Positions 30,201 to 33,200 of a stretch of 64,000 bases of DNA are shown piece by piece. Source of the DNA: Escherichia coli. Lineage in GTDB: Bacteria > Pseudomonadota > Gammaproteobacteria > Enterobacterales > Enterobacteriaceae. The stretch's first letter is position 1; each line of letters starts with the position of its first letter. The stretch lies in NCBI RefSeq assembly GCF_030013205.1, contig NZ_CP122648.1; one strand, written 5' to 3'. Position numbers: made by a program.

Positions 30201-33200
30201 CATTTTTTAACCTCAAGGTGAGACGTTTGTCGACTATAGTACGTCACAGAGCGGTACGGTGAAATTAGCAAAATGTGCAAAGTCTTTTGCTAATTTAGCA
30301 AAAGTCTTACCCTTACCAGCTCACCTTCGCCTCAAATCCACCTTGTTCCGCATTCCCAAACTCAACATTCATGCCATGCAATTTGGCGATTCGCTGGACA
30401 ATCGATAGCCCAAGTCCACTGCCGGTAGCGGTTTGTCCGGGTGGGCGATAGAAGCGTTCGCCAATTCTCGCCAGTGCCTCTGGCGTCACACCGGGGCCGT
30501 TATCCCTCACGATGAAATTTTCGGCATTCAGCGTGACGTCCACCACGCTGCCCTGTGGACTGTAGCGCACGGCGTTATCCAGAAGGTTTCGTACCAACAA
30601 ACTTAGCAACAGCGGTTGTCCGGTGCGTTTGATACCGTGGGCATTGAGTGTCAGTCGCACGTCAATTTTCGCCTGCTGCGCCGTGTGGTAAATATCCATT
30701 ACCGACGATTGCAGGAGATCTTCAAGCGGGATCTCCGCGACGTCCTGAAGGTTATCCAGTGAGTCCAGCCGCGATAGCGTGAGCAGTTGATCAACCAGAC
30801 GAGTAGCACGATCGATTCCGGAATGTAATTGAAGCAGCGCTTTTTTCCGCGCCTGCGGATCATCGTCAGAGAGCTGCGCAACTTCGGTTTGCACTTTCAG
30901 CGCCGTTAACGGGCTACGAAGTTCGTGAGCTGCGTCGGAGGTAAAGCGTCGTTCACGAACCATCATCGCATGTGTGCGGGCGAACAGTTGATTCAACGAC
31001 TCAACCAGTGGACGCACTTCGCTGGGTACGCCCGTCGCGTTTAGTGGTTTTTCCGAGTCAGGGTCACGCATACGTAGTGCCAGCGCCAGTTTGTTCAGCG
31101 GCGCGAGTTCACGACCCAGTAGTACCATCATGATGATTAACATAATCGGCAGTGCGACAAGCCACGGGATCAATTGCCCGGCAACAATCGCCAGCGCCAT
31201 GTCTTCGCGGTATTCCCATTCCTGACCAACAACGATGCGATATTTGCCATCAGGTGAGGTCATCCAGACAAAACGCCAGGGATCGTCTTCACCGACCAGT
31301 TGCCCGTCAGCAAAACCTTCCCGTTGATAGCTATAGGGAATATCTTCTCCGTTATCGCCATCGTTAAGGACCATTCTGCCGTCGTGGGTAAAGATGGCAA
31401 AGGTCAGCGCATCGTCATCAACATGACCGTGTTTTAATTTATTTGGCGTCTGTGCCATGCGATCTGCCGCGTTGATTTCGTTGAGATCGAGCGTACTTAA
31501 CCGCTTGGCAAACAGCATCAGTTGGGTGTCGAACAACTCATCGACGTTATCCGTTGTTTGTTTCCAGGCGACAAAGCTGGAAAGCAGCCAAGTCACTGAG
31601 GCCAGAATTAAAAAGATTAGCGTCAGCCTGACTCGCAGACTAAGACGTTGGGTAAATTTCATTTCTCACCTAATGTGTAGCCAATACCATGAACGGTACG
31701 AATAAAATCACTGCCGAGTTTGCGTCGCAGATGATGCACATGCACTTCAACGGCATTACTGGTGACCTCTTCGTCCCAGGTATACAGTTTCTCTTCAATC
31801 AGTTTGCGCGGCAGTACCCGACCAGCGTTACGCATCAGTAATTCCAGCAGGGCAAATTCTTTTGGTTTCAGCGTTAAGGGTTCGCCAGCCAGCGTGGCGA
31901 TACGTTTGCCGGGGTCGAGCATGACGTTGCCGTGGCGCAGCTCGTTGCTGGCCTGGCCGTTGGTTCGGCGCATCAGAGCTTCCAGCCTGGCGGCGACTTC
32001 TATCAACGCAAAAGGTTTACACAGATAATCGTCAGCTCCCAGACGCAGCCCTTCTACACGTTCCGCCAGCGCATCGCGCGCGGTCAGGATCAGTACCGGC
32101 TCACGCTGACCTTTTTCTCGCCATTCGCGCAAAATATCGCGACCATCCATGCCCGGTAAGGTTAAATCCAGGATCACCGCATCATAAGGCGCACTATATA
32201 GCGCCTCTTTTCCCTGACGACCTTGTGTAAACCAGTCGACGCTAAAACCCATTTTACTAAGGCCCGTTTTGATGCCGTCGCCAATCAGCATGTCATCTTC
32301 TATCAGTAAAATTCGCATTTTTTCATCCCTGCGATAACCGTATTTGCTGCCAGTAAACCGTGTTGTAACGCGCTCTGTACAGCATTAAATTTTATTTTTT
32401 TCCCTTAAGAAGTTGTTAAGGACTATCTTGTTAAATGCTCGGAAACAGACATTAAAGGGAGTAATAAACATGAAAAAATTCGCAGCAGTAATCGCAGTAA
32501 TGGCCCTGTGCAGCGCACCGGTGATGGCAGCAGAGCAGGGCGGTTTTTCTGGCCCATCGGCAACGCAAAGTCAGGCCGGAGGATTCCAGGGGCCGAACGG
32601 CAGCGTAACGACCGTAGAAAGCGCAAAATCCCTGCGTGACGACACCTGGGTAACCCTGCGCGGCAATATCGTTGAACGCATCTCTGACGATCTCTACGTG
32701 TTCAAAGATGCCAGCGGTACTATCAATGTTGATATCGACCACAAACGCTGGAACGGCGTGACGGTGACGCCGAAAGATACGGTTGAGATTCAGGGTGAAG
32801 TCGATAAAGACTGGAATTCTGTTGAAATTGACGTCAAACAGATCCGCAAAGTAAATCCGTAATTGTTACCGCTCCCGGGACACGTTCCCGGGAATAATTT
32901 CGCAGGGAGGCAAAATGACAAACCTGACACTGGATGTAAATATTATCGATTTCCCATCAATCCCTGTGGCGATGTTGCCGCACCGCTGTAGCCCTGAGTT
33001 GCTCAACTACAGCGTGGCGAAATTTATCATGTGGCGTAAAGAGACGGGGCTTTCTCCTGTTAACCAAAGCCAGACTTTTGGCGTCGCCTGGGACGACCCT
33101 GCCACCACCGCACCGGAAGCGTTTCGCTTTGATATCTGCGGCAGCGTTAGCGAACCGATTCCCGATAATCGTTATGGTGTGAGTAATGGTGAACTTACCG

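What the first reader, a model, noticed from the sequence alone, without database searches (positions are those of the whole stretch)
30204..30312. Short qseC-mdaB spacer with a perfect 12-bp AT-rich inverted repeat and no ygiZ-like ORF
Only 109 bp separate the qseC stop from the mdaB start. The spacer contains AAATTAGCAAAA-N11-TTTTGCTAATTT (30262-30296) plus a direct repeat of GCAAAAGTC. I recall a small membrane-protein gene (ygiZ) at this position in K-12. The palindrome could be an operator for mdaB-ygiN or a weak qseC terminator.
Basis: partly seen in the sequence, partly recalled or inferred. Interest (0 to 1): 0.35.

Follow-up and report, generated by a model that had tools for sequence, protein, structure and literature searches.

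The report
Ancestral qseC–mdaB spacer with mdaB promoter
The short gap between qseC and mdaB is the ordinary, ancestral arrangement in enteric bacteria; its palindrome lies in a deeply conserved control region of the mdaB promoter, and its perfect symmetry comes from one strain-level base change.

Summary
The spacer is 109 bp (30204-30312), it holds a perfect 12-bp inverted repeat with an 11-nt gap, and no ygiZ occurs anywhere in the window.

The short spacer is the ancestral state, not an oddity. 77 of 80 Enterobacteriaceae species have a qseC–mdaB gap of about 104-110 bp without ygiZ. K-12 is derived: it carries a 588-bp ygiZ cassette. That cassette is probably a remnant of a three-gene islet (hcp, a 236-aa protein, ygiZ) inserted at exactly this point. 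Only 824 of 5,425 complete E. coli genomes keep the empty site.

The palindrome is not conserved as a palindrome. Only 218 of 5,403 E. coli genomes have it perfect; the rest have G at 30291. Across genera only a 6-bp core pairs, with no covariation.

What is conserved is the block ATTaTTGC-N7-GCAAAAGACTTTGCACATTTTGCtnATTT, followed exactly 20 bp later by a TAnnnT −10 hexamer in 80 of 81 sequences. It contains a forward marbox-like site (TTTGCACATTTTGCTAATTT) over the −35 position.

My best reading is that this is the mdaB-ygiN promoter control region, probably class II MarA/SoxS/Rob-activated, with additional unexplained TTGC/GCAA half-sites. A terminator role is poorly supported. The finding is ordinary and of low interest.

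The parts
30204..30312 (-). qseC–mdaB intergenic spacer, 109 bp; the uninterrupted ('empty-site') ancestral form
   Evidence: ORF coordinates. The same arrangement occurs in 77 of 80 Enterobacteriaceae loci and in 824 of 5,425 E. coli genomes.
30262..30296 (.).
   Evidence: Perfect only with T at 30291. Across genera only the inner 6 bp (GCAAAA/TTTTGC) are kept, with no covariation.
30280..30308 (.). Second, overlapping inverted repeat (14-nt arms, one mismatch, 1-nt gap); contains the conserved TTGC-N7-GCAA dyad (TTGC 30298-30301, GCAA 30287-30290 on the sense strand)
   Evidence: TTGC and GCAA are invariant or nearly so in 79 sequences. The N7 between them is variable and not self-complementary in about half of the sequences.
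30262..30281 (-). Forward marbox-like 20-mer TTTGCACATTTTGCTAATTT (A site GCAC, B site CTAA), abutting or overlapping the -35 position of the inferred mdaB promoter
   Evidence: 12 of 14 specified positions of AYNGCACNNWNNRYYAAAY. 10 of 11 positions of gcannwwntgnnaaa. The same 15-mer is listed as a predicted MarA site for mdaB in PMC12052159 S2 Table. Nearly invariant across genera.
30236..30241 (-). Inferred -10 hexamer TACTAT of the conserved mdaB-ygiN promoter
   Evidence: A TAnnnT hexamer lies exactly 20 bp after the conserved block in 80 of 81 sequences, with variable inner bases such as TAAAAT, TAGAAT and TATCAT. It falls below the threshold of the sigma-70 scan, as expected for an activator-dependent promoter.
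30228..30229 (-). Inferred transcription start (conserved CA, 7-8 nt after the -10 hexamer), about 25 nt upstream of the ATG
   Evidence: Conserved CAnAC motif at a fixed offset. This is an inference; no TSS data for this position were available.
30255..30270 (-).
   Evidence: K-12 TSS 3170500 (U00096.2) is listed 16 nt from the marbox centre in PMC12052159 S2. It falls 7 nt after TAATTT in my mapping (±1 nt). The hexamer's A at position 2 is not conserved outside Escherichia, Salmonella and Citrobacter.
30308..30312 (.). Junction GGGTA (sense strand): the point where K-12-type genomes carry the ygiZ cassette or the hcp–236-aa–ygiZ islet
   Evidence: Alignments of the window with K-12-like, 47258 and SCU-484 loci show identical borders for the 588-bp, 627-bp and roughly 1.8-kb inserts.
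30291..30291 (.). SNP (T here, G in about 96% of E. coli) that makes the 12-bp palindrome perfect
30230..30230 (.). Second uncommon SNP (T here, C in the four other E. coli compared), next to the inferred start site

Best explanation
The 109-bp spacer is the ancestral, uninterrupted qseC–mdaB intergenic region of Enterobacteriaceae. The palindrome lies inside the roughly 45-bp, deeply conserved upstream control region of the mdaB-ygiN promoter and acts at the DNA level, not as an RNA structure.

On the sense (-) strand the order is: qseC stop, TTGC-N7-GCAA dyad, GCAAAAGAC, forward marbox-like site TTTGCACATTTTGCTAATTT, 20 bp, -10 hexamer TACTAT, start about 25 nt before the ATG.

They are complementary because TTGC/GCAA half-sites recur roughly once per helical turn. 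They become a perfect 12/12 only through a strain-level SNP at 30291.

The most likely mechanism is that MarA, SoxS or Rob (RamA in other genera) binds the marbox over the weak -35 and recruits RNA polymerase, that is, class II activation. The same site overlaps an upstream extended -10 promoter.

Shown: the conservation pattern, the conserved -10 signature, the marbox match and its position, and the insertion polarity. Inferred: the start site, the identity of the binding protein, and the role of the extra TTGC/GCAA half-sites.

My sub-confidences are about 0.8 that this is the mdaB cis-regulatory region and about 0.5 that class II Mar/Sox/Rob activation through this exact site is the mechanism.
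For: (1) Ancestral arrangement. 77 of 80 species have qseC ending 104-110 bp before mdaB with no ygiZ. Salmonella has a 106-bp spacer, and mdaB-ygiN is an operon of its own, not co-transcribed with preB (qseC) (PMC2653508).

(2) Conserved block. The consensus ATTaTTGC-N7-GCAAAAGACTTTGCACATTTTGCtnATTT is nearly invariant across genera whose QseC is only 58-80% identical.

(3) Conserved -10 signature. A TAnnnT hexamer lies exactly 20 bp after the block in 80 of 81 sequences, with variable inner bases, followed by a conserved CA.

(4) Marbox match. 12 of 14 positions of the classical consensus and 10 of 11 of the gcannwwntgnnaaa definition match, in forward orientation, centred at about -42.5/-43.5 from the inferred start. 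The class II micF soxbox is at -41.5 (PMC9638938), and forward sites at -36 to -55 are classed as class II (PMC12052159).

(5) Independent prediction. The same 15-mer is listed as a MarA site for mdaB (PMC12052159 S2).

(6) Expression data. mdaB is described as belonging to the mar regulon (PMC2989944) and as MarR/MarA-responsive (PMC6561319). mdaB and ygiN drop 3.2- and 2.3-fold in a Salmonella ramA mutant (PMC3139621).

(7) Weak -35. It matches 2-4 of 6 positions and the promoter is not found by the sigma-70 scan, as described for class II promoters (PMC10268841).

(8) Natural experiment. In E. coli K-12 types, E. whittamii, Citrobacter werkmanii and Pseudocitrobacter the insertion always lies upstream of ATTaTTGC. 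The whole block stays intact next to mdaB although 0.6-1.9 kb now separate it from qseC.

Against: A marbox consensus match alone means nothing: 14 matches in the window against 16.5 expected by chance.

mdaB is not among the EcoCyc high-quality MarA targets listed in PMC12052159 S3. No MarA, SoxS, Rob or RamA ChIP-seq peak is listed between yggJ and tolC in Salmonella SL1344 (PMC10268841 Table 1). However, that table also lacks nfsA/ybjC, and the same group states that its E. coli ChIP-seq found only about 20% of known targets.

The only experimentally listed K-12 start near the site (3170500) lies 16 nt from the marbox centre, so the marbox overlaps that promoter's -10. The class II start I infer has no direct data, and primer extension for mdaB failed in Salmonella.

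The inferred centre is 1-2 bp further upstream than the canonical -41.5.

The invariance of the marbox spacer (ACATTTT) and of GCAAAAGAC and ATTaTTGC exceeds what a degenerate marbox needs, so at least one further factor or constraint is unaccounted for. The B site is weak in many genera (CAT instead of AAA).
Confidence: 0.6

Rival explanations
1. The conserved TTGC/GCAA array is the operator of a different, still unidentified dimeric or tetrameric regulator. The array consists of TTGC-N7-GCAA centred at about -65/-66, GCAAA-N4-TTTGC at about -55, and TTTTGC at about -42. One possibility is a LysR-type protein using a T-N11-A recognition site at -65 plus an activation site near -35. That regulator would control mdaB-ygiN, with or instead of MarA/SoxS/Rob.
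For: The half-sites are invariant while the N7 between them is free, which is the pattern expected for a protein-binding dyad. Half-sites start at alignment positions 15, 26, 36 and 45, roughly 10-bp phasing (and my reading). TGC-N7-GCA is a T-N11-A motif, and its centre falls at -65/-66 from the inferred start. The canonical LysR geometry is from my own knowledge. Conservation exceeds what a marbox needs. PreA (QseB) overexpression activates mdaB in Salmonella by an unknown route.
Against: No regulator gene is divergently linked to mdaB; qseC lies upstream in the same orientation. No known factor could be assigned. The library holds no paper naming both YhaJ and mdaB. The QseB/PmrA-type box CTTAA-N6-CTTAA is absent from the spacer and present only at 32405-32420. 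Positions rest on an inferred start site. The TTGC-N7-GCAAAAG pattern is not enriched in the window beyond this locus.
Confidence: 0.25
2. The inverted repeats act in RNA as the 3'-end hairpin or weak intrinsic terminator of the qseBC transcript, insulating mdaB from read-through.
For: A hairpin starts 6 nt after the qseC stop codon. Either hairpin folds at -9.6 kcal/mol in this strain, and the 127-nt region folds better than shuffles (z = -2.4). preB and mdaB are not co-transcribed in Salmonella despite the 106-bp spacer. There is slight covariation in the two innermost pairs of the upstream hairpin: 30 double-change cells against 21.9 in shuffles.
Against: No U-tract follows either stem, and the terminator scan finds nothing in the spacer. 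An A·A mismatch sits in the stem in 71 of 79 species, and the inner pairs are unpaired in about half. Energies in other genera are -3 to -7.6 kcal/mol, against -18.1 for the real qseC/ygiZ terminator of K-12. The block is retained with mdaB, not with qseC, wherever the islet is inserted. Loop and flank bases are as invariant as stem bases.
Confidence: 0.12
3. The short spacer is a secondary, strain-specific deletion of ygiZ, and the palindrome is a deletion scar.
For: 85% of complete E. coli genomes carry an insert here, so within E. coli the empty site is the minority state.
Against: The empty-site sequence is collinear with that of E. albertii, other Escherichia, Salmonella, Citrobacter, Klebsiella, Enterobacter and others. 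The palindrome region is present unchanged in ygiZ-bearing genomes, so it is not a scar. In K-12 the mdaB-side border of the insert keeps a decayed copy of a qseC 3' end, as expected for an insertion.
Confidence: 0.05

Closest known systems
Class II MarA/SoxS/Rob(/RamA)-dependent promoters (micF, fumC, inaA, lpxL P1, rfaY P1; lpxC P2)
   Same: Asymmetric 20-bp marbox with GCAC (A site) distal and an A-rich B site proximal. Forward orientation, overlapping a poor -35, about 42 bp upstream of the start. The gene belongs to the oxidative-stress and drug-response set. As at lpxC, the same marbox also overlaps the core of a second, upstream promoter (PMC12052159).
   Different: Binding has not been shown for mdaB in the sources I could read. 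The inferred centre is 1-2 bp upstream of -41.5. B-site position 18 is T in all genera. The sequence is far more invariant than known marboxes and is flanked by extra conserved TTGC/GCAA half-sites.
Salmonella preB(qseC)–mdaB 106-bp intergenic region (Merighi et al. 2009, PMC2653508)
   Same: Orthologous spacer of nearly the same length, without ygiZ, with the same conserved block (L014, L020). mdaB-ygiN is a separate operon.
   Different: The start site was never mapped there. The region between TTGC and GCAA differs (CAAAAAC), so no 12-bp perfect palindrome exists.
E. coli K-12 qseC–ygiZ–mdaB region
   Same: Identical mdaB-proximal 104 bp apart from two SNPs.
   Different: K-12 has a 588-bp cassette with ygiZ, ygiZ's BglJ-RcsB-activated promoter (PMC3950696) and a strong bidirectional terminator (-18.1 kcal/mol), in place of the window's 5-bp GGGTA.
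Rho-independent terminators
   Same: A stem-loop directly after a stop codon.
   Different: The stem is AT-rich, no U-tract follows, the stem is not conserved, and the energy is low.

Membership tests
Class II Mar/Sox/Rob-activated promoter | 20-bp asymmetric marbox matching AYnGCACnnWnnRYYAAAYn / gcannwwntgnnaaa | tested here: met
   TTTGCACATTTTGCTAATTT matches 12 of 14 and 10 of 11 positions. The match alone is not statistically distinctive: 14 hits against 16.5 expected in the window.
Class II Mar/Sox/Rob-activated promoter | Forward orientation, overlapping the -35, centred near -41.5 | tested here: inconclusive
   Orientation is forward. The site lies 20 bp before the conserved -10, giving a centre of -42.5/-43.5 from an inferred, unmapped start. 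This is within the -36 to -55 window used in PMC12052159.
Class II Mar/Sox/Rob-activated promoter | No recognisable -35 hexamer; canonical -10 | tested here: met
   The -35 candidates TTCACC and TTTCAC match 4 of 6 and 2 of 6 positions. TAnnnT is conserved in 80 of 81 sequences. The promoter is not detected by the consensus scan.
Class II Mar/Sox/Rob-activated promoter | Activator binds the site (EMSA, footprint or ChIP) | not testable with these tools
   Literature only. The site is predicted in PMC12052159 S2. mdaB is not in that paper's list of EcoCyc high-quality targets. No ChIP-seq peak is listed in Salmonella.
Class II Mar/Sox/Rob-activated promoter | Expression depends on MarA, SoxS, Rob or RamA | not testable with these tools
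   Literature: RamA dependence in Salmonella; described as a mar regulon member.
   Only the inner 6 bp are conserved. The outer six pairs are unpaired in 38-57 of 79 species. The repeat is perfect in only 218 of 5,403 E. coli genomes.
Rho-independent terminator | G+C-rich stem followed directly by a U-tract | tested here: not met
   The scan finds none in the spacer. The stems are AT-rich and fold at -9.6 kcal/mol.
Rho-independent terminator | Stem maintained by compensatory changes | tested here: inconclusive
Upstream hairpin: weak excess of double changes in two inner pairs, but an A·A mismatch in 71 of 79 species.
LysR-type regulated promoter | T-N11-A dyad near -65 plus a site near -35 | tested here: inconclusive
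   TGC-N7-GCA is nearly invariant, and its centre is -65/-66 from the inferred start. The canonical geometry is from my own knowledge.
LysR-type regulated promoter | Regulator gene divergently adjacent | tested here: not met
   Upstream is qseC in the same orientation. The downstream neighbours vary: parE in K-12, a MurR/RpiR gene here.
QseB/PmrA-type response-regulator box | Direct repeat CTTAA-N6-CTTAA | tested here: not met
   None occurs in the spacer with up to one mismatch. The only exact copy is at 32405-32420, in the ygiW–qseB intergenic region. The box definition is from my own knowledge.
T6SS hcp–effector–immunity islet (context of ygiZ) | Present in the window | tested here: not met
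   tblastn with Hcp, the 236-aa protein and DUF2645 gives no hit in the window. The window has the empty site.

The most novel reading that the evidence does not exclude
The 'missing ygiZ' marks the empty state of a recurrent insertion point for a three-gene type VI secretion islet: hcp, a 236-aa lytic-transglycosylase-like putative effector, and DUF2645/ygiZ. On this reading the K-12 y-gene ygiZ is an orphan immunity gene left after loss of hcp and the effector. The islet's strong terminator would also uncouple mdaB-ygiN from qseBC read-through, which remains possible only in empty-site strains such as this one and O157:H7.
Probability: 0.4. Interest if true: 0.45.

Novelty: already known. 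Interest (0 to 1): 0.18.

Why it matters
For the finding as given, very little. It is a normal intergenic promoter region, and the absence of ygiZ is the ancestral state.

It is useful as a caution in two ways. K-12 is the derived genome at this locus. A 'perfect palindrome' can be a one-SNP accident on top of conserved, non-palindromic regulatory elements.

Two by-products could be worth a bench test:
- The roughly 45-bp block upstream of mdaB is conserved well beyond what a marbox requires. This suggests an additional, unidentified regulator of the quinone-detoxifying mdaB-ygiN operon.
- The islet context gives a testable function (T6SS immunity) for the uncharacterised K-12 protein YgiZ.

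Tried and rejected
Rfam scan of 29200-30800 at E ≤ 1: no match.

Sigma-70 promoter and terminator consensus scan: nothing in the spacer.

Marbox consensus as a statistical argument: rejected, because hits are at chance level.

RNA-hairpin hypotheses: tested by covariation and largely rejected.

QseB/PmrA-type box: absent.

By-eye comparison with sigma-54, CRP, FNR, Fur, PurR and SoxR consensus sequences recalled from memory: nothing convincing. GCAAA-N4-TTTGC resembles PurR half-sites but with the wrong spacing. These comparisons were not formally tested.

Literature:
- No accessible paper gives a mapped mdaB start or a demonstrated marbox.
- Martin & Rosner 2002 is not held in the library.
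- Supplements of PMC10268841 and PMC5684230 do not mention mdaB.
- There are no hits for mdaB together with YhaJ or for DUF2645.

The distances printed in PMC12052159 S2 are internally inconsistent by 10 for + strand starts. The marRAB control shows that the raw coordinate differences are the right ones. My mapping of K-12 TSS 3170500 to window 30255 carries ±1 nt uncertainty.

Single-sequence AlphaFold of the 236-aa islet protein was useless (pLDDT 40.6). It was repeated with a 26-sequence alignment.

A similar TTTTGC-N7-GCAAAA dyad upstream of the hybO-like ORF (54678-54698) is within chance expectation and was not pursued.
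Full report
OBSERVATION

The window is E. coli; its best match is strain K_EC180 at 100%. On the - strand lie qseB (32318..31659), qseC (31662..30313), mdaB (30203..29619) and ygiN (29592..29278). The qseC–mdaB spacer is 30204-30312, 109 bp.

The inverted repeat AAATTAGCAAAA (30262-30273) / TTTTGCTAATTT (30285-30296) is 12/12 with an 11-nt gap. A second inverted repeat overlaps it, with arms at 30280-30293 and 30295-30308 (14 nt, one mismatch, 1-nt gap). The middle element is shared, so the two structures exclude each other.

The 'direct repeat of GCAAAAGTC' is only approximately right. The exact repeated unit is AAAGTCTT, present twice, and one copy of the longer string lacks an A.

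Perfect inverted repeats of at least 12 nt with a loop of at most 20 nt occur at four loci in the window, against 0.14 expected in shuffles. No ygiZ, hcp or effector homologue is found anywhere in the window.

YGIZ: WHICH STATE IS DERIVED

K-12 MG1655 has ygiZ between qseC and mdaB. Aligning the window with K-12-like loci shows a clean replacement. The window's 5 bp GGGTA (sense strand, 30312..30308) correspond to a 588-bp cassette, or 627 bp in another lineage. The cassette carries ygiZ and a strong hairpin shared with qseC. The 104 bp next to mdaB are identical except for two SNPs.

Among one genome for each of 80 Enterobacteriaceae species, 77 have qseC ending 104-110 bp before mdaB with no ygiZ. 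These span Escherichia, Salmonella, Citrobacter, Klebsiella, Enterobacter, Leclercia, Kluyvera and others. For Salmonella a 106-bp spacer is published (PMC2653508). The short spacer is therefore ancestral and K-12 is derived.

Within 5,425 complete E. coli genomes:
- 824 keep the uninterrupted spacer.
- About 3,300 have the ygiZ-only cassette.
- About 1,300 have a larger insert.

In strain SCU-484 the larger insert is hcp (PF05638, TIGR03344), a 236-aa protein and a DUF2645/ygiZ homologue, with the same two borders as the K-12 cassette. The same three-gene module sits at the same site in Citrobacter werkmanii and Pseudocitrobacter. In K-12 the mdaB-side border retains a decayed copy of a qseC 3' end (GGTGAG..TCAGAGTAAG). 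It resembles the empty-site allele of Escherichia sp. MOD1-EC7003, which fits an insertion rather than a deletion in the window.

THE PALINDROME IS NOT THE CONSERVED UNIT

Only 218 of 5,403 E. coli genomes match the 53 bp 30255-30307 exactly, and all others differ by one base. In K-12, an O157-like empty-site strain and two other genomes, that base is G at 30291, which breaks the palindrome to 11/12.

It shows no covariation. Only the inner GCAAAA/TTTTGC pairs are kept.

The other hairpin pairs in 77.9% of cells. It carries an A·A mismatch in 71 of 79 sequences, and its two inner pairs are unpaired in about half. The small excess of double changes is within what relatedness can produce.

Predicted RNA energies are -9.6 kcal/mol for either hairpin here, -7.1 and -5.0 with the common allele, and -3 to -7.6 in other genera. 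The K-12 qseC/ygiZ terminator folds at -18.1. No U-tract follows either stem, and there is no Rfam match.

WHAT IS CONSERVED

Anchored alignment of 81 upstream regions gives, on the sense strand, ATTaTTGC-N7-GCAAAAGACTTTGCACATTTTGCtnATTT. Most positions are invariant although QseC is only 58-80% identical between these genera.

Exactly 20 bp downstream, 80 of 81 sequences have a TAnnnT hexamer whose inner bases vary (TAAAAT, TAGAAT, TATCAT, TACTAT and others). This is the signature of a -10 element. It is followed 7-8 nt later by a conserved CA, and the ATG lies 58 nt after the block in most sequences.

In the window the hexamer is 30241..30236 and the inferred start is 30229/30228. This start is an inference.

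Wherever the islet is present, it lies upstream of ATTaTTGC. The whole block remains intact beside mdaB and 0.6-1.9 kb from qseC. This natural experiment assigns the block to mdaB rather than to qseC.

MECHANISM

The 20-mer TTTGCACATTTTGCTAATTT (30281..30262) matches the marbox consensus at 12 of 14 specified positions. It matches the gcannwwntgnnaaa definition at 10 of 11. It is in forward orientation and abuts a very poor -35. Its centre is about -42.5/-43.5 from the inferred start.

For comparison, the class II micF soxbox is centred at -41.5, with GCAC as the distal A site (PMC9638938). Forward sites between -36 and -55 are classed as class II (PMC12052159). Class II promoters characteristically lack a -35 (PMC10268841).

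The identical 15-mer GCACATTTTGCTAAT is listed as a predicted MarA site for mdaB in PMC12052159 S2 Table. mdaB is reported as part of the mar regulon and as MarR/MarA-responsive. mdaB and ygiN fall 3.2- and 2.3-fold in a Salmonella ramA mutant.

I therefore commit to class II Mar/Sox/Rob(/RamA) activation of a conserved mdaB-ygiN promoter as the most likely mechanism.

In E. coli it also reads as an extended -10 (TGcTAATTT). A start listed for K-12 at 3170500 (U00096.2) falls 7 nt after it in my mapping (±1 nt). The marbox would thus overlap one promoter's core while sitting in class II position for the next, the arrangement described for lpxC.

CAVEATS

- Marbox-like strings occur at chance frequency: 14 in the window against 16.5 expected. 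The known tolC marbox at 16740-16758 is among them.
- mdaB is not in the EcoCyc high-quality MarA target list reproduced in PMC12052159 S3.
- No ChIP-seq peak is listed at mdaB in Salmonella. That table also lacks ybjC/nfsA, and the authors state their earlier E. coli ChIP-seq recovered only about 20% of known targets.
- The mdaB start could not be mapped in Salmonella.
- Conservation of the marbox spacer and of GCAAAAGAC and ATTaTTGC is stronger than a marbox needs.
- TTGC/GCAA half-sites recur at roughly 10-bp intervals and form two further dyads: TTGC-N7-GCAA, which is a T-N11-A motif centred near -65, and GCAAA-N4-TTTGC.
- A second, unidentified DNA-binding protein, or αCTD contacts, may therefore be involved. 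I could not name the factor. The QseB/PmrA-type box CTTAA-N6-CTTAA is absent here and present only upstream of qseB.

COMPARISON AND NOVELTY

The spacer is the orthologue of the Salmonella preB–mdaB region. The promoter resembles class II marbox promoters. The site itself has already been predicted computationally, and the ygiZ polymorphism is visible in any pangenome.

Nothing about the finding as stated is new or surprising; I score interest at 0.18.

The most novel reading left open concerns what is absent. The site is a recurrent insertion point for an hcp–effector–ygiZ islet, which suggests that K-12 YgiZ is an orphan T6SS immunity protein.

The evidence on the 236-aa protein is as follows:
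- It has only 34 homologues, all unannotated.
- It has an invariant WIESGG motif with Glu82.
- Its model (pLDDT 72.5) is closest to the lytic transglycosylase MltE and to the T6SS muramidase Tse3.
- These fold matches are weak: probability 0.6-0.96, TM 0.4-0.5, and all E > 0.1.

This reading is suggestive, not shown.

Noticed in passing
L085:7836-9365 (E. coli SCU-484); also L017:726-2254 and L073:623-2146; absent from the window: A three-gene islet (hcp, an uncharacterised 236-aa protein, DUF2645/ygiZ) occupies the qseC–mdaB site in about 1,300 E. coli genomes, in Citrobacter werkmanii and in Pseudocitrobacter. The 236-aa protein has an invariant WIESGG motif and a weak fold resemblance to MltE and Tse3. 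K-12 ygiZ looks like an orphan immunity gene. No paper in the library mentions DUF2645.
   Followed up: partly
L084:2400-2430 (K-12 MG1655, mdaB-side border of the ygiZ cassette): A decayed copy of a qseC 3' end (GGTGAG..TCAGAGTAAG) resembles the empty-site allele of Escherichia sp. MOD1-EC7003 (L007). This implies that the insertion duplicated about 20-25 bp of the target.
   Followed up: partly
window 29619-29627: mdaB has a 1-nt deletion just before the stop codon (TTTTTGG becomes TTTTC-G). The C-terminus is ...EIFVN (194 aa) instead of ...EIFG (193 aa). The annotated 194-aa mdaB product of strain K_EC180, whose DNA is identical to the window here, carries its own protein accession, distinct from the one shared by the other genomes examined.
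   Followed up: yes
window 27339-29233: Downstream of ygiN are an iron-siderophore ABC substrate-binding gene and a MurR/RpiR regulator, part of a larger Fec-type transporter cluster. K-12 has parE directly after ygiN. This is a second presence/absence polymorphism flanking the mdaB-ygiN operon.
   Followed up: partly
window 32405-32420: This is the only exact CTTAA-N6-CTTAA direct repeat in the window (CTTAACAACTTCTTAA). It lies in the ygiW–qseB intergenic region and is a likely QseB/PmrA-type box for qseBC/ygiW autoregulation.
   Followed up: no
window 16740-16758 (- strand): ATGGCACGTAACGCCAACC matches the marbox consensus with one mismatch. It contains the tolC marbox 15-mer GCACGTAACGCCAAC listed in PMC12052159 S2, and serves as a positive control for the pattern search.
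   Followed up: partly
window 54678-54698: A similar dyad, ATTTTGC-N7-GCAAAAT preceded by ATTATTG, lies about 35 bp upstream of a hybO-like ORF (54732..55850). It is within chance expectation for the pattern.
   Followed up: no
window 30306-30317: A tandem GGTAAG GGTAAG spans the qseC stop codon (sense strand CTGGTAAGGGTAAGAC). It is specific to this E. coli empty-site allele; E. albertii has GGTAGCGGTAAG.
   Followed up: no
window 11403-11436, 21295-21322, 42297-42337: These are the three other perfect inverted repeats of at least 12 nt in the window. They are G+C-richer than the one studied and are probably terminators or operators.
   Followed up: no
L084 about 2429-2434 (K-12), TSS 3170452 in U00096.2: A K-12 start site listed in PMC12052159 S2 lies just upstream of the conserved block. 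It appears to use a TAAGAT hexamer contributed by the ygiZ cassette border, so the insertion may have created an extra promoter reading into mdaB.
   Followed up: no
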